A DNA stretch of 64,000 nucleotides from Escherichia coli (GTDB taxonomy: Bacteria > Pseudomonadota > Gammaproteobacteria > Enterobacterales > Enterobacteriaceae), in assembly GCF_036507355.1 (NCBI RefSeq), contig NZ_AP027877.1; one strand, 5' to 3'. Position 1 is the first letter of the stretch, and every line of letters begins with the position of its first letter. The notes beneath the pieces are model-generated. The model did no database searches and was not told the origin of the DNA. It saw only the letters and a program-made list of their open reading frames with translations. A program made the translations under genes and the position numbers. This document shows positions 295 through 5,500 of this stretch, in pieces.

Positions 295-1424
295 AAACCT
301 TCAGCGATCGCTGGCGACAACTGGACTGGGACGACATCCGCCTGCGTATCAACGGCAAAACGGCTGCTGACGTAGAGCGGGCGCTAAATGCCTCGCAACT
401 CACCCGCGACGACATGATGGCGCTGTTATCGCCTGCCGCCAGTGGCTATCTGGAACAACTGGCCCAACGGGCGCAGCGTCTGACCCGTCAGCGATTTGGC
501 AACACAGTTAGTTTCTACGTCCCGCTTTATCTTTCCAATCTTTGCGCTAACGACTGCACGTACTGCGGATTTTCCATGAGTAATCGCATCAAGCGCAAAA
601 CGCTGGACGAAGCGGATATTGCCAGGGAAAGCGCCGCTATACGGGAGATGGGCTTTGAACATCTGCTTTTAGTCACTGGTGAACATCAGGCGAAAGTGGG
701 GATGGATTACTTTCGTCGTCATCTCCCTGCCCTGCGTGAACAGTTCTCTTCACTACAGATGGAAGTGCAACCGCTGGCGGAGACGGAATACACCGAGTTA
801 AAGCAACTTGGTCTGGATGGGGTGATGGTTTATCAGGAGACATATCACGAGGCGACTTATGCCCGCCATCATCTGAAAGGCAAAAAACAGGACTTCTTCT
901 GGCGGCTGGAAACGCCGGATCGGCTGGGGCGTGCGGGGATTGATAAGATTGGCCTCGGCGCACTAATTGGCCTTTCCGACAACTGGCGAGTTGACTGTTA
1001 TATGGTTGCCGAACATTTGCTATGGCTGCAACAGCATTACTGGCAAAGCCGCTACTCTATCTCCTTCCCGCGCCTGCGCCCATGTACTGGCGGCATTGAG
1101 CCTGCGTCGATTATGGATGAACGCCAGTTAGTGCAAGCCATCTGCGCCTTCCGGCTGCTTGCACCGGAGATTGAACTGTCACTCTCCACGCGGGAATCAC
1201 CGTGGTTTCGCGATCGCGTTATTCCGCTGGCGATCAATAACGTCAGCGCCTTCTCGAAAACGCAGCCAGGTGGCTATGCCGATAATCACCCCGAGTTGGA
1301 ACAGTTCTCACCGCACGACGATCGCAGACCGGAAGCGGTTGCTGCCGCGTTAACCGCTCAGGGTTTGCAGCCGGTATGGAAAGACTGGGACAGCTATCTG
1401 GGACGCGCCTCGCAAAGACTATGA
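291..1424 (+). CDS. thiH: 2-iminoacetate synthase ThiH (radical SAM)
   Basis: 377 aa ORF with the CxxxCxxC radical-SAM motif ([10 protein letters not shown]); position after thiG. Confidence 0.93.
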
Positions 1425-1807
1425 GACGGAATGTAAGGACGTAAATTTATTCCGAGCCGCTACGGAAGATGAAAAACGCAAGGTTGTTGAAAGCGTTGTG
1501 TTTTTTTATGGTAGTGCCGTCAGCAGGAATGTTGTCCAGGGCGAAAAGCTTCTTCCTCGTTTCGCCCTGCCTTTCTTAAAAATTCCGTAATGCAAAGTCT
1601 GAAGCCATCGCCTGTTGAGCAATGAAAGAGATCTGATTGTAAGAGAGTAAATACTCAACTATGATAGAGACGAAAATAAGAACACATGTTCTCATCTTCC
1701 AGGATGCAGCAGACTGAAGAAATTCAGACATCCCGCAACCTGCGATTATCGCAAGGTCAAGGCAAAGTCCGGTAATGGCGTTCTGAATACCAGAGATAAT
1801 TCTCTGG

Positions 1808-1840
1808 CGAAACCCACCTTAAGGTGGGTTTTGTTATTTT
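1808..1840. terminator. GC-rich hairpin with flanking T-run between the convergent thiH and yjaZ genes
   Basis: aaacccacc-ttaa-ggtgggttt followed by tgttatttt on the + strand; lies directly 3' of the yjaZ stop on the - strand. Confidence 0.5.
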
Positions 1841-2373
1841 GAGGGCTGAGGAAGCTGCTTATTTCTCAATAAGTTGTAGGCAATGGTGAAAAATTTCACT
1901 GATTTACCTTTCTGTTTTTCAGAAATGGGATAAGCGCTAGTTACATGCAAACGAAGTTTTTTCTTTTCCCTGAAAGCCCTGAACGCAACAAAGTAAAATG
2001 CCTTGTCTCCTCCGTTTAAATCCACTTCAATCACGGCATAGCTACCATACCCAGCATGAATAACGTTGCTTTCTGGCAGCGCCAAAATGGTTCTTTTTAA
2101 GTGTATGCGCGCTAAGTTATAACGGTGCTGGCAGAAGGGACGAGATTCTTTAGGCGCGTGGTACATTAACGATTGTTTTTCTTCGTTAGTCTGATGTTCA
2201 TAATCTTTTGTGAAGCAGTGAAGAGAGTAGGTAACCCAGAAGCGATACTCTAAAGGCTCTTTGCCCTCATGATGCTGAACGTAGACAGCCTGATGAGCAT
2301 CAAGAAATGATAAATCACGAATATCACCATCCGGATGTCCAAAAGGTCGCCACTTCTCCACTTCCTGTTTCAT
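1834..2373 (-). CDS. yjaZ: YjaZ/HtrC heat-shock-associated protein
   Basis: 179 aa ORF, the length expected for HtrC; located immediately downstream of rpoC. Confidence 0.85.
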   Translation of the reverse strand: MKQEVEKWRPFGHPDGDIRDLSFLDAHQAVYVQHHEGKEPLEYRFWVTYSLHCFTKDYEHQTNEEKQSLMYHAPKESRPFCQHRYNLARIHLKRTILALPESNVIHAGYGSYAVIEVDLNGGDKAFYFVAFRAFREKKKLRLHVTSAYPISEKQKGKSVKFFTIAYNLLRNKQLPQPSK

Positions 2374-2535
2374 TCTCGTTCCTTAAGAAAGTCACACAGG
2401 AATAGTATCGAATTCTTGCCGAGCTTGACTCAATTAGTTCAGTCAGTTTCAGGATATTAGTCATCTCTACATTGATTATGAGTATCCAGAAATTCATTAA
2501 ATATTCTGACAAATGCTCTTTCCCTAAACTCCCCC

Positions 2536-2562
2536 CATAAAAAAACCCGCCGAAGCGGGTTT
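2536..2562 (-). terminator. rpoC intrinsic terminator
   Basis: Hairpin cccgc-cgaa-gcggg followed by a U-run on the - strand, about 25 nt past the rpoC stop. Confidence 0.8.
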
Positions 2563-2585
2563 TTACGTTATTTGCGGATTAACGA

Positions 2586-5500
2586 TTACTCGTTATCAGA
2601 ACCGCCCAGACCTGCGTTCAGCAGTTCTGCCAGGCTGGCAGATGCGTCTTCTGCAGTCACCTGCGGTGCAGCCGGAGCTTCACCCGCAGCACGGCGACGC
2701 ATACGATCCTGGTGGTACGCGTAACCGGTACCTGCCGGGATCAGACGACCCACGATAACGTTCTCTTTCAGGCCGCGCAGTTCGTCGCGTTTGCCCGCAA
2801 CGGCTGCTTCGGTCAGCACGCGAGTGGTCTCCTGGAACGATGCCGCGGAGATGAAGGACTCGGTTGCCAGAGACGCTTTGGTGATACCCAGCAGATCGCG
2901 GGAGTAAGTTGCACCCACTTTGCCGTTCGCTTCCAGTTCGCGGTTTGCGATCTTGACGCGAGAGTATTCAACCTGTTCGCCTTCCAGGAAGTCGGAGCTG
3001 CCCGCGTTAACGATGGTAGCTTTACGCAGCATCTGACGAACGATAACTTCGATGTGTTTATCGTTAATCTTAACGCCCTGCAGACGGTATACGTCCTGTA
3101 CTTCGTTAACGATGTAACGAGTCACAGCATGAACACCACGCAGACGCAGAATGTCGTGCGGCGCTTCCGGACCGTCGGAAATTACGTCACCACGTTCTAC
3201 ACGTTCACCTTCGAACACGTTGAGCTGACGCCATTTCGGAATCATCTCTTCGTACGGATCGCTACCGTCTACCGGGGTGATAACCAGACGACGTTTACCT
3301 TTGGTTTCTTTACCGAAGGAAACGATACCGCTGATTTCAGCCAGGATTGCCGGCTCTTTCGGACGACGTGCTTCGAACAGGTCCGCAACGCGCGGCAGAC
3401 CACCGGTGATGTCCTTGGTACCGCCGGATTCCTGCGGAATACGCGCCAGGGTGTCACCAGAGCTGATCTGTACGCCATCTTCCAGCTGAACAATCGCTTT
3501 ACCCGGCAGGAAGTACTGCGCAGGCATATCGGTACCAGGGATCAGAACGTCGTTACCCTGAGCATCAACGATTTTCAGTGCCGGACGCAGATCTTTACCA
3601 CCTGCGGTACGTTCTGCGGAATCCAGAACCACCAGCGAAGACAGACCGGTCAATTCGTCGGTCTGACGCGTAATGGTCTGGCCGTCGATCATGTCAGTAA
3701 AGCGTACAAAACCGCTTACTTCGGTGATAACCGGCATGGTGTGCGGGTCCCAGTTTGCAACGGTTTCGCCGCCAGCAACCTGTTCGCCATCGCCTTTTGC
3801 CAGTACCGCACCGTAAGGTACTTTGTAGCTTTCTTTGGTACGACCGAATTCGTCGATCAGTTTCAGTTCGGTGTTACGGGAAGTGATAACCAGTTTACCG
3901 CTGGAGTTCACAACCGACTTCACGTTGCTGAGCTTGATGCTACCTTTGTTTTTCACCTGGATGCTGGATTCAGCAGCCGCACGAGATGCCGCACCACCGA
4001 TGTGGAACGTACGCATGGTCAGCTGTGTACCCGGTTCACCGATGGACTGTGCCGCGATAACACCGATTGCTTCACCCTTGTTGATGATGTGGCCACGCGC
4101 CAGGTCACGACCGTAGCAGTGCGCACATACACCAAAGTCGGTGTCACAAGATACAACAGAACGTACTTTAACCGCGTCGACAGAGTTCTCTTCCAGCAGG
4201 TCACACCACTGTTCGTGCAGCAGCGTGTTGCGCGGAACGAGGATATCAGCAGTACCCGGCTTCAGAACGTCTTCAGCAGTTACACGACCCAGTACGCGAT
4301 CGCGCAGCGGCTCTTTAACGTCACCACCCTCGATAACCGGAGTCATCATGATACCTTCATGGGTACCACAATCGTCTTCGGTAACCACCAGGTCCTGCGC
4401 CACGTCAACCAGACGACGAGTCAGGTAACCGGAGTTCGCAGTTTTCAGTGCGGTATCCGCCAGACCTTTACGAGCACCGTGGGTGGAGATGAAGTACTGG
4501 AGTACGTTCAGACCTTCACGGAAGTTCGCGGTGATTGGCGTTTCGATGATGGAGCCATCCGGCTTCGCCATCAGACCACGCATACCAGCAAGCTGACGAA
4601 TCTGTGCCGCAGAACCACGCGCACCGGAGTCGGCCATCATGTAGATGCTGTTGAAGGAAACCTGCTTCTCTTCCTGACCGTCACGGTTAATAACGGTTTC
4701 AGTTTGCAGATTATCCATCATCGCTTTGGATACACGATCGTTCGCCGCAGCCCAGATATCGATAACTTTGTTATAACGTTCGCCCGCAGTTACCAGACCA
4801 GACTGGAACTGCTCCTGAATTTCAGCAACTTCTGCTTCTGCCTCGGAGATGATTTCGTGTTTCTTCTCCGGGATGACCATGTCATCGATACCAACAGATG
4901 CACCAGAACGCGCTGCATATGCAAAGCCGGTGTACATGATCTGGTCCGCAAAAATAACGGTCGGTTTCAGACCGAGAATGCGGTAGCAGGTGTTCAGCAT
5001 TTTGGAGATTGCTTTTTTACCCAGCGCCTGGTTGACGATGGAGTAAGGCAGACCTTTCGGTACAATCATCCACAGAATGGCACGGCCAACGGTCGTGTCT
5101 TTCAGGCTGGTTTTCGCTACTAATTCACCGTTAGCATCTTTTTCATACTCGGTGATACGCACTTTAACGCGCGCATGCAGAGAAGCCAGACCAGAGCGAT
5201 ACAGACGTTCTGCTTCTTTCGGGCCAGTCAGCACCATGCCTTCGCCTTTGGCGTTAACACAGTCACGGGTCATGTAGTACAGACCCAGTACAACGTCCTG
5301 AGACGGAACGATGATTGGTTCGCCGTTCGCCGGGGACAGGATGTTGTTGGTAGACATCATCAGCGCACGCGCTTCCAGCTGGGCTTCCAGCGTCAGCGGT
5401 ACGTGAACAGCCATCTGGTCACCATCGAAGTCGGCGTTATATGCCGCACAAACCAGCGGGTGCAGCTGGATAGCTTTACCTTCGATCAGTACCGGTTCAA

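What the first reader, a model, noticed from the sequence alone, without database searches (positions are those of the whole stretch)
1425..1833. 409 bp convergent intergenic region between thiH and yjaZ with a terminator-like hairpin; possible small RNA
The gap contains no ORF of 60 aa or more, but has a strong hairpin with a T-run (1808-1840) and a second T-rich tract near 1490-1510. I have an uncertain recollection that a small RNA (SroH) maps to this intergenic region in K-12; I cannot confirm that from sequence alone.
Basis: inference. Interest (0 to 1): 0.2.

Follow-up and report, generated by a model that had tools for sequence, protein, structure and literature searches.

The report
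Known sRNA SroH, paired with YjaZ
The gap holds sroH, an annotated E. coli small RNA of unknown function. It turns out to be a conserved, structured RNA that travels on plasmids, phage-plasmids and chromosomes almost always beside the uncharacterised protein gene yjaZ, so the two probably work together.

Summary
Window 1672-1832 (+) is sroH (Rfam RF00372, 201 bits against a threshold of 80). It coincides exactly with MG1655 gene b4691. The 1808-1840 hairpin is its terminator, and the yjaZ stop codon (1834-1836, minus strand) lies in the terminator's U-tail. As a finding this is already known.

Follow-up added four things that I did not find in the literature searched.

- sroH and yjaZ form a 945-bp accessory cassette (window 1589-2533). 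About 31% of complete E. coli genomes lack it.
- Class-I SroH copies occur on 104 PLSDB plasmids, on phage-plasmids, and in Aeromonas, Pantoea, Thiothrix and marine metagenomes.
- The RNA has a multi-helix fold with a three-way junction. It is supported by covariation: 97% of cells paired, 21 of 40 pairs compensatory, 0 of 500 shuffles as good. Rfam annotates only the terminator.
- A YjaZ homologue sat convergently at the RNA's terminator in 21 of 25 class-I loci, down to 43% protein identity. More distant YjaZ homologues carry divergent RNAs in the same place.

YjaZ has a confident AlphaFold model whose only structural neighbours are RelE/ParE-type toxins, and those matches are weak.

My best inference is that SroH is the dedicated RNA partner of YjaZ, possibly an antitoxin-like one. 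That mechanism is unproven.

The parts
1425..1588 (+). thiH 3' flank shared by all E. coli genomes. It has two hairpins: 1471-1506, ending in U7, and 1537-1570. These are probably terminators of the thi operon. This stretch is not part of SroH.
   Evidence: Present in genomes that lack sroH and yjaZ. Fold (z = -2.85).
1589..2533 (.). 945-bp accessory cassette carrying sroH, yjaZ and the yjaZ promoter region. In E. coli LY180 it is replaced by 24 unrelated bases.
   Evidence: 3729 of 5420 genomes cover at least 80% of the query, and the rest match only as far as window position ~1588. Exact junctions. No terminal or tandem repeats.
1637..1665 (+). Sigma-70-like promoter of sroH (TTGTAA, 17-nt spacer, TATGAT). 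It places the transcription start near 1672.
   Evidence: The Rfam and b4691 5' end is at 1672. Plasmid copies have TTGCAA-17-TATAAT-type boxes upstream of the core (read by eye).
1672..1700 (+). 5' leader of SroH specific to the E. coli lineage. It contains the palindrome AGAACACATGTTCT and is not conserved in most plasmid copies.
   Evidence: Homology to plasmid copies starts at 1701. Other lineages have different 5' hairpins.
1701..1840 (+). Conserved SroH core. It consists of P1 (GGAUG/CAUCC, with the GCAGCA internal loop and an apical hairpin); the long-range helix CGCW/WGGYG, which closes a three-way junction with the variable hairpin P2 and the mini-hairpin P3; the invariant stretches CGGUAA and UCUGAAUA; hairpin P4; and the terminator with its U-tail.
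   Evidence: Covariance model R1 scores 135.6 bits here. Covariation counts on 25 sequences. G-U pairs fix the structured strand as +.
1810..1840 (+). Intrinsic terminator of SroH. The yjaZ stop codon (1834-1836, minus strand) sits in its U-tail.
   Evidence: Poly(A) tails were mapped at the 3' end of the SroH primary transcript (PMC5389530).
1834..2373 (-). yjaZ (formerly htrC), 179 aa, an uncharacterised protein. It is the conserved neighbour of SroH.
   Evidence: NCBIfam NF007263, 427 bits. AlphaFold2 mean pLDDT 91.8. Linkage to the RNA shown.

Best explanation
Shown here. The gap contains sroH, the known 161-nt E. coli small RNA. It is an independent transcription unit with its own sigma-70-type promoter (1637-1665) and intrinsic terminator (1810-1840). 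It is not a thiH 3'UTR product. sroH and the convergent gene yjaZ form a 945-bp accessory cassette.

Homologous RNA-plus-protein pairs recur on plasmids, phage-plasmids and chromosomes of several gammaproteobacterial orders. In most of them the RNA terminator abuts the protein's stop codon. The RNA folds into a conserved multi-helix structure with invariant unpaired stretches.

Inferred. SroH is the dedicated RNA partner of YjaZ. Most likely it binds YjaZ directly and restrains or directs it. This would resemble an RNA antitoxin acting on a protein toxin, given YjaZ's weak RelE/ParE-like fold. Convergent 3' overlap may add an antisense layer of control over yjaZ mRNA.

The confidence given refers to the whole statement. 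Identity and cassette are near certain. Functional coupling of some kind is about 0.75. The antitoxin-like mechanism is about 0.3-0.35.
For: Identity.
- Rfam sroH at 201 bits, full length.
- Coordinates equal MG1655 b4691.

Own promoter and terminator.
-.
- Plasmid copies keep a promoter at a fixed distance from the core.

Cassette.
-.

Spread.
- Class-I RNA on 104 PLSDB plasmids.
- Nine species-representative genomes, including Aeromonas, Pantoea and Erwinia.
- Four IMG/VR contigs.
- A Thiothrix plasmid.

Structure.
- 25 sequences, 97.0% of cells paired.
- 21 of 40 pairs carry compensatory changes.
- 0 of 500 shuffles reach the observed values; slid controls give 32-45% pairing.
- The long-range helix alone shows G:C to A:U, C:G to U:A or G:C, and U:A to A:U swaps.

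Linkage.
- An intact YjaZ homologue lies convergently at the RNA terminator in 21 of 25 class-I loci, from 100% down to 43% amino-acid identity.
- These include ocean metagenome contigs with unrelated flanking genes.
- YjaZ homologues at 29-36% identity carry other structured RNAs, bounded by a promoter and a terminator, at the same position.
- Every YjaZ locus I examined had an adjacent candidate RNA, whereas the RNA occurs alone in 5 of 25 loci.
- The Vibrio locus keeps the pair although the RNA lies upstream on the same strand, so there is no antisense overlap there.

Toxin-like hints.
- The best Foldseek hit is HigB2.
- On IncF-type plasmids relBE occupies the slot that yjaZ occupies on sister plasmids.
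- HTH genes lie upstream of distant homologues, three of them overlapping the yjaZ homologue by 4 nt.
- Invariant residues are H52, R78, R84 and Y127.
- Literature: an sroH deletion is sensitive to envelope stress (PMC5389530, citing its reference 65), and an RpoE holoenzyme site lies upstream of yjaZ (PMC5493296).
Against: - No experiment links SroH to YjaZ, and the literature I could search does not mention the pair.
- PADLOC, PHROGs and the local Pfam copy give no hit.
- Both the sroH deletion and the yjaZ deletion are viable in K-12 (PMC5389530; strain list in PMC4666387). An essential antitoxin would not behave this way unless yjaZ is poorly expressed.
- Intact SroH copies exist without yjaZ, next to relBE or alone, so the RNA may act independently.
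- The covariation counts come from an alignment fitted to the model.
- The class II and III RNAs rest on a few sequences read partly by eye.
- Hfq PAR-CLIP enrichment (bioRxiv 10.1101/2020.06.29.178624) and one in-vitro target, kbl (PMC6172242), point towards an ordinary base-pairing sRNA.
Confidence: 0.6

Rival explanations
1. SroH is an ordinary trans-acting, base-pairing sRNA, possibly Hfq-assisted, that regulates host mRNAs. Its adjacency to yjaZ reflects only co-inheritance within a small mobile cassette.
For: It was enriched in Hfq PAR-CLIP, although the authors call it not an established Hfq target (bioRxiv 10.1101/2020.06.29.178624). It bound kbl mRNA in a gel-shift assay (PMC6172242). 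It accumulates in stationary phase and is listed as a CRP-regulated sRNA (bioRxiv 10.64898/2025.12.22.696124). It has a Rho-independent terminator with a U-tail. Intact copies occur without yjaZ.
Against: Co-inheritance alone does not explain why the pair persists down to 43% protein identity with unrelated flanks. Nor does it explain why more distant YjaZ clades carry different RNAs at the same spot. A seed-type sRNA would not be expected to keep a three-way junction and several invariant loops across bacterial orders. Overexpression gave no biofilm or motility phenotype (PMC4606813).
Confidence: 0.2
2. SroH acts only in cis. Convergent transcription and pairing with read-through yjaZ mRNA at the shared terminator control yjaZ expression, in the manner of a type I toxin-antitoxin system or a plain cis-antisense RNA. 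No RNA-protein contact is involved.
For: The terminator abuts or overlaps the stop codon in class-I loci and in most of the distant loci examined. On the yjaZ strand the hairpin is followed by UUUCGCC, a poor terminator, so read-through into antisense SroH is plausible (read directly from the sequence). The architecture resembles convergent type I systems that share a bidirectional terminator, such as par of pAD1 (from my own knowledge).
Against: Antisense complementarity is automatic and needs no conserved sequence or fold. Yet unpaired stretches are invariant and the helices covary. In the Vibrio locus the RNA lies upstream on the same strand. I found no complementarity above shuffled controls between SroH and the yjaZ 5' region, in a crude test. 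YjaZ is a 179-aa soluble protein, not a small membrane peptide.
Confidence: 0.15
3. The RNA is a processed 3'UTR fragment of the thiCEFSGH operon, or the gap encodes a small protein.
For: SroH is on the same strand as thiH. Small ORFs exist in the gap: 29 aa on the plus strand at 1686-1775 and 51 aa on the minus strand at 1576-1731.
Against: The cassette is absent from about 31% of E. coli genomes that keep thiH. Two terminator-like hairpins lie between thiH and sroH. A promoter sits 7 nt upstream of the mapped 5' end. The plus-strand ORF is truncated in the pSX48-3 copy while the downstream RNA sequence stays conserved. The minus-strand ORF lies mostly outside the conserved core.
Confidence: 0.03

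Closest known systems
SroH sRNA (Rfam RF00372; E. coli K-12 b4691)
   Same: It is this gene. The Rfam match is full length at 201 bits. Position, strand and length are those of b4691, between thiH and yjaZ.
   Different: Nothing differs at the locus. What I add is context. Rfam annotates only the terminator stem, whereas the family has a covariation-supported multi-helix fold. The family is also largely plasmid- and phage-borne and is linked to YjaZ.
Type III toxin-antitoxin systems (ToxIN, CptIN, TenpIN)
   Same: A non-coding RNA with a conserved fold is genetically coupled to a protein gene. Such systems are carried on plasmids and phages. In my sample the RNA can occur alone but the protein never does.
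   Different: Type III antitoxins are tandem repeats placed upstream on the same strand, and the toxin processes them. SroH is a single copy with no repeats. It has its own promoter and is usually convergent. YjaZ shows no ToxN-like similarity.
Type I toxin-antitoxin systems with enzyme toxins or convergent layout (SymE/SymR, RalR/RalA, par of pAD1, txpA/RatA)
   Same: A small RNA lies next to, and partly overlaps, a protein gene. The convergent layout shares a terminator, as in par and txpA/RatA (comparison from my own knowledge).
   Different: The overlap is limited to the stop codon and terminator. The RNA's sequence and fold are conserved far beyond what antisense pairing needs. No toxicity has been shown for YjaZ.
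RelE/ParE superfamily toxins (type II toxin-antitoxin systems)
   Same: They are the only structural neighbours of the YjaZ model. relBE replaces yjaZ in the same plasmid slot. Some distant YjaZ genes follow an HTH gene in an operon-like arrangement.
   Different: The similarity is weak and covers only about 70 of 179 residues. There is no sequence-profile match. The class-I cassette has no protein antitoxin.

Membership tests
Rfam RF00372 sroH | Covariance-model score at or above the gathering threshold (80 bits) over the full model | tested here: met
   201.1 bits, model positions 1-161 of 161, E 2e-50
Rfam RF00372 sroH | Same locus, strand and length as E. coli K-12 sroH (b4691), between thiH and yjaZ | tested here: met
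   MG1655 sroH is 4190327-4190487 on the minus strand, 1 nt from the yjaZ stop. This equals window 1672-1832 on the plus strand
Rfam RF00372 sroH | Expressed as a discrete small transcript | not testable with these tools
   Literature only: full-length and processed forms with poly(A) at the 3' end (PMC5389530); stationary-phase accumulation on Northern blot (bioRxiv 10.64898/2025.12.22.696124)
3'UTR-derived sRNA of thiH | Depends on the upstream operon's transcription, with no promoter of its own, and is inherited with the upstream gene | tested here: not met
   Own promoter-like site at 1637-1665. Two hairpins lie in between. The cassette is absent from about 31% of genomes that keep thiH
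Type III toxin-antitoxin | RNA antitoxin made of tandem direct repeats, upstream of the toxin gene and on the same strand | tested here: not met
   No tandem repeats in 1400-2650. The RNA is single-copy and convergent
Type III toxin-antitoxin | RNA binds and neutralises the protein toxin | not testable with these tools
   Only indirect support: conserved linkage and conserved unpaired nucleotides
Type I toxin-antitoxin | Antisense RNA base-pairs with the toxin mRNA to block translation or trigger decay | tested here: inconclusive
   The overlap covers only the stop codon and terminator. No 5' complementarity above shuffled controls in a crude duplex test. Read-through of yjaZ mRNA is unknown
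Type I toxin-antitoxin | Toxin is a small hydrophobic peptide, or a demonstrated toxic protein | tested here: not met
   YjaZ is a 179-aa, mixed alpha/beta soluble-type model. Toxicity was not tested, and a yjaZ deletion is used routinely (PMC4666387)
RelE/ParE toxin superfamily (for YjaZ) | Significant fold or profile similarity to RelE/ParE toxins | tested here: inconclusive
Hfq-dependent trans-acting sRNA | Binds Hfq and regulates mRNAs through a conserved seed | not testable with these tools
   PAR-CLIP enrichment, but described as not an established Hfq target (bioRxiv 10.1101/2020.06.29.178624). One gel-shift target, kbl (PMC6172242)
YjaZ family (NCBIfam NF007263; PF27200 as listed in precomputed tables) | Profile score above the curated cut-off | tested here: met
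   427.5 bits against a cut-off of 324. PF27200:YjaZ is listed for homologues, but the local Pfam copy lacks that model

The most novel reading that the evidence does not exclude
SroH and YjaZ form a previously unrecognised, widely mobile RNA-protein two-component system. A single-copy structured RNA with its own promoter binds a RelE/ParE-like protein and neutralises or guides it. This would be a toxin-antitoxin or defence-type module with an architecture unlike types I-VIII. The RNA component has diversified into at least three classes alongside the protein.
Probability: 0.3. Interest if true: 0.75.

Novelty: already known. Interest (0 to 1): 0.4.

Why it matters
As written, the finding re-identifies an annotated sRNA, so by itself it is ordinary.

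The value is in the follow-up. SroH and YjaZ have both lacked a function for decades, and YjaZ's original "heat-shock protein C" label was retracted (PMC11551758).

They form a conserved, horizontally mobile RNA-protein pair with a covariation-supported RNA fold. This turns two orphan genes into one testable system. Three experiments follow directly:
- Does YjaZ bind SroH?
- Is YjaZ toxic without SroH?
- Does the cassette stabilise plasmids or block phage?

It also suggests two corrections. The Rfam sroH entry could carry a full secondary structure. And the absence of sroH from phylogroups B2 and D may reflect gain or loss of a cassette rather than simple loss of an sRNA.

Tried and rejected
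- thiH 3'UTR origin: rejected (see rival explanations).
- Small protein in the gap: the 29-aa plus-strand ORF and the 51-aa hydrophobic minus-strand ORF are not conserved in homologues.
- Other Rfam families: weak hits to rnk_pseudo, Hammerhead_II, and rsmX or Trp_leader at the rpoC terminator are all below threshold and driven by terminator hairpins.
- Phage GenBank collection: no blastn match to the cassette.
- YjaZ annotation: nothing useful from the local Pfam copy, PADLOC, PHROGs, PDB sequence or profile searches, or BFVD. The afdb50 library was unavailable.
- SroH pairing with the yjaZ 5' region: RNAduplex z-scores between -0.9 and +0.9 in nine loci, so no signal. The test is crude because duplex length was unconstrained (one search timed out).
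- Complements of SroH's invariant loops elsewhere in the 64-kb window: no more than chance.
- Terminal or target-site repeats at the cassette ends, and tandem repeats: none meaningful.
- Vogel et al. 2003, the original SroH description, could not be read.
- The first literature search on "SroH" alone returned mostly dental-health papers using the same acronym.

Full report
**1. What is at the coordinates**

thiH (291-1424, +) and a 179-aa ORF (1834-2373, -) converge, leaving 1425-1833 without any ORF of 60 aa or more. The 179-aa ORF is YjaZ, formerly HtrC (NCBIfam NF007263, 427 bits).

An Rfam scan gives one strong match. It is sroH (RF00372) at 1672-1832 on the + strand, 201.1 bits against a gathering score of 80, covering the full model. 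In the MG1655 reference, sroH (b4691) is annotated at 4190327-4190487, one base from the end of yjaZ. That is exactly window 1672-1832.

The yjaZ stop codon (1834-1836 on the minus strand) lies inside its tail. A sigma-70-like promoter (TTGTAA, 17-nt spacer, TATGAT; 1637-1665) ends 7 nt before the annotated 5' end.

**2. The gap is a composite**

A megablast of window 1300-1950 against 5,426 complete E. coli genomes found the whole query in only 3,729 genomes. In the others the match stops at about window 1588. In strain LY180, rpoC follows thiH directly.

Exact junctions show that window 1589-2533 (945 bp: sroH, yjaZ and the yjaZ promoter region) is replaced there by 24 unrelated bases. I found no terminal or tandem repeats.

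The thiH-proximal 164 bp (1425-1588) are present in all genomes. They hold two hairpins, 1471-1506 ending in U7 and 1537-1570.

An earlier study noted that sroH is missing from phylogroups B2 and D and from some other strains, and read this as loss (PMC3318445). My data show that the unit gained or lost is the sroH-yjaZ cassette.

**3. SroH is a mobile RNA family**

blastn of the cassette against PLSDB hit 103 plasmids. The RNA core alone (window 1701-1840) hit 104. The hosts were Serratia, Enterobacter, Escherichia, Klebsiella, Citrobacter and even Thiothrix.

The plasmid copies score 99-160 bits with Rfam's sroH model. A pattern scan of species-representative genomes added Aeromonas, Pantoea, Erwinia and others. 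IMG/VR gave four viral contigs. A phage-plasmid (pSX48-3) carries the pair between tail genes.

Homology begins at window 1701, so the first 29 nt of the K-12 transcript are lineage-specific. Most plasmid copies have a TTGCAA-17-TATAAT-type promoter a few bases before the core (read by eye).

**4. The RNA has a conserved fold**

I parsed 21 distinct sequences into modules and built a covariance model (R1). I then re-aligned the real sequences to it. The elements are:

- P1: GGAUG/CAUCC, with an invariant GCAGCA internal loop and an apical hairpin.
- A long-range helix, CGCW with WG-GYG, closing a three-way junction with P2 and P3.
- P2: a variable hairpin, ACC...GGU, 12-43 nt.
- P3: a three-pair hairpin, GGC-NNN-GYC.
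- Invariant stretches CGGUAA and UCUGAAUA.
- P4: CCAGRR/YYCUGG, variable.
- The terminator.

On 25 sequences, 97.0% of cells form standard pairs and 21 of 40 pairs show changes on both sides. None of 500 shuffles reaches the observed values. Sliding the 3' partners drops pairing to 32-45%.

Every helix except P3 has compensatory changes. Frequent G-U pairs would be A-C mismatches on the other strand, so the structured strand is the SroH sense strand.

One caveat applies: the alignment was fitted to the model, which favours the model. Rfam's entry marks only the terminator stem.

**5. The RNA and YjaZ travel together**

tblastn found an intact YjaZ homologue convergently placed immediately after the RNA terminator in 17 of the first 22 loci, at 51-100% identity. 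Two more loci held degenerate copies.

YjaZ has 204 clusters at 50% identity in a library of 1.84 billion representatives. I fetched contigs for more distant members.

- Homologues at 43-49% identity. These came from metagenomes, including ocean samples, with unrelated neighbouring genes. All carry a class-I SroH (91-113 bits) whose tail overlaps the stop codon. They also bring new compensatory changes in P1 and the long-range helix.
- Homologues at 29-36% identity. These carry different but mutually similar RNAs, bounded by a promoter and a terminator, at the same position and in the same orientation. A Proteus 2.6-kb plasmid copy still scores 39.6 bits with R1.

YjaZ homologues are on 560 PLSDB plasmids. 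In one Vibrio plasmid the class-I-like RNA lies upstream on the same strand as the protein gene.

The RNA occurs without YjaZ in 5 of 25 class-I loci. Three of these are next to relBE on IncF-type plasmids. In sister plasmids yjaZ occupies that same slot (DUF2913, then the RNA, then X, then a tyrosine recombinase). I saw no YjaZ locus without a candidate RNA. However, the sample is about 34 loci, and the divergent RNA classes were judged partly by eye.

**6. What YjaZ looks like**

No family in the local Pfam copy, PADLOC or PHROGs matches YjaZ, and no PDB sequence or profile hit was found. An AlphaFold2 model built from 70 homologues is confident (mean pLDDT 91.8, pTM 0.86).

The invariant residues are H52, R78, R84, Y127 and A147. 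Some distant homologues follow an HTH gene, and three of these overlap the yjaZ homologue by 4 nt. These are hints of a toxin-like protein, not proof.

**7. Literature**

- SroH is still described as of unknown function.
- It is polyadenylated, and its deletion is reported to be sensitive to envelope stress (PMC5389530).
- It bound kbl mRNA in vitro (PMC6172242).
- It was enriched in Hfq PAR-CLIP, but the authors call it not an established Hfq target (bioRxiv 10.1101/2020.06.29.178624).
- It rises in stationary phase (bioRxiv 10.64898/2025.12.22.696124).
- Overexpression gave no biofilm or motility phenotype (PMC4606813).
- yjaZ is listed as a gene whose first functional label was retracted (PMC11551758).
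- An RpoE holoenzyme-binding site lies upstream of yjaZ (PMC5493296).
- No paper in the searchable library links SroH with YjaZ, plasmids or toxin-antitoxin systems. Subscription-journal papers are mostly not covered.

**8. How it most likely works**

Shown: sroH is an independent gene with a promoter and a terminator. It belongs to a mobile cassette with yjaZ. The RNA fold and several unpaired stretches are conserved across bacterial orders. The RNA-protein adjacency is conserved far beyond what shared ancestry of the flanks can explain.

Inferred: SroH is YjaZ's dedicated RNA partner. Three observations favour direct RNA-protein recognition:

- Antisense complementarity needs no sequence or fold conservation.
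- The Vibrio arrangement has no overlap.
- In my sample the RNA can stand alone but the protein does not.

This resembles an RNA antitoxin or regulator acting on a RelE/ParE-like protein. Convergent 3' overlap may add a second layer of control.

The rivals are an ordinary trans-acting sRNA, a purely cis-antisense element, and, now essentially excluded, a thiH 3'UTR fragment or a small protein. A crude test found no SroH complementarity to the yjaZ 5' region above shuffled controls.

**9. Verdict**

The finding is real and correctly interpreted, but it is already known: an annotated sRNA. I score the finding modestly rather than low. The follow-up gives a specific, testable and apparently unreported hypothesis for two long-standing orphan genes.

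Noticed in passing
window 1589-2533: sroH and yjaZ form a 945-bp presence/absence polymorphism. About 31% of 5,420 complete E. coli genomes lack it, and LY180 has 24 unrelated bases there instead. No terminal repeats mark the ends.
   Followed up: yes
L004/L005/L007 (~3001-3133) versus L009/L015/L018: IncF-type plasmids share the order DUF2913, then SroH-like RNA, then X, then a tyrosine recombinase. X is either a yjaZ homologue or a relBE toxin-antitoxin pair. The relBE versions keep about 15 nt after the RNA terminator that resemble a yjaZ 3' end.
   Followed up: partly
L029 3534-3700, L031 907-1080, L037 3036-3260, L038, L039/L040, L041 (minus strand of each locus): YjaZ homologues at 30-36% identity carry a different convergent RNA with its own promoter and terminator ('class II'). 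Shared motifs are GUGCGCUGAUCCCGCC, CCACCCAWGYGUGG and CAAGAGGCC. In most of them the terminator tail overlaps the stop codon.
   Followed up: partly
L042 3042-3188 (-), L043 579-712 (-): A YjaZ homologue at about 29% identity is the most common plasmid form among the 560 YjaZ-bearing plasmids, which are mostly Klebsiella. In the one copy inspected it sits between IS26 elements. This copy and a Proteus 2.6-kb plasmid homologue carry a third RNA variant (GGAUGGUUACAGGG...GCAUCCCGC...GCGACCUGCCC).
   Followed up: partly
L044 1809-1937 (+) and 1962-2513 (+): In Vibrio parahaemolyticus pVP17-2 a class-I-like SroH (46 bits) lies upstream of a YjaZ homologue on the same strand, not convergent. The bases after its terminator resemble the 3' end of a lost convergent yjaZ.
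   Followed up: partly
L025 120-443, L026 2505-2894, L038 508-969, L039 223-498, L040 288-875: Several distant YjaZ genes are preceded by a small gene on the same strand. Some of these are HTH proteins (HTH_17, XRE type, or weak HTH_36), and others have no Pfam hit. Three of them overlap the YjaZ start by 4 nt, an operon layout typical of toxin-antitoxin pairs.
   Followed up: no
window 1672-1700: The K-12-type SroH has a 29-nt 5' leader with the perfect palindrome AGAACA-CA-TGTTCT. Other lineages have unrelated 5' hairpins or none. It could be a stabilising stem or a protein-binding site.
   Followed up: no
window 1576-1731 (-): A 51-aa ORF with a hydrophobic stretch (VLIFVSIIVEYLL) overlaps the sroH promoter and 5' end on the opposite strand. 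Most of it lies outside the region conserved in homologues.
   Followed up: partly
window 1808-1840: The consensus terminator scan did not report the SroH terminator, although by my reading it appears to meet the stated criteria. I have no explanation.
   Followed up: no
window 2537-2638 (-): Weak sub-threshold Rfam hits (rsmX 31 bits, Trp_leader 25 bits) sit on the rpoC terminator hairpin at 2541-2564. They are driven by the terminator stem and are almost certainly chance matches.
   Followed up: no
L022 2927-3061 (-): An intact SroH-like RNA stands alone in an IMG/VR contig. It lies between an Ogr/Delta-like zinc-finger gene and a gene I read as Rpn (YhgA)-like. Both assignments rest on inspection of the ORF translations only, and no YjaZ is present.
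   Followed up: no
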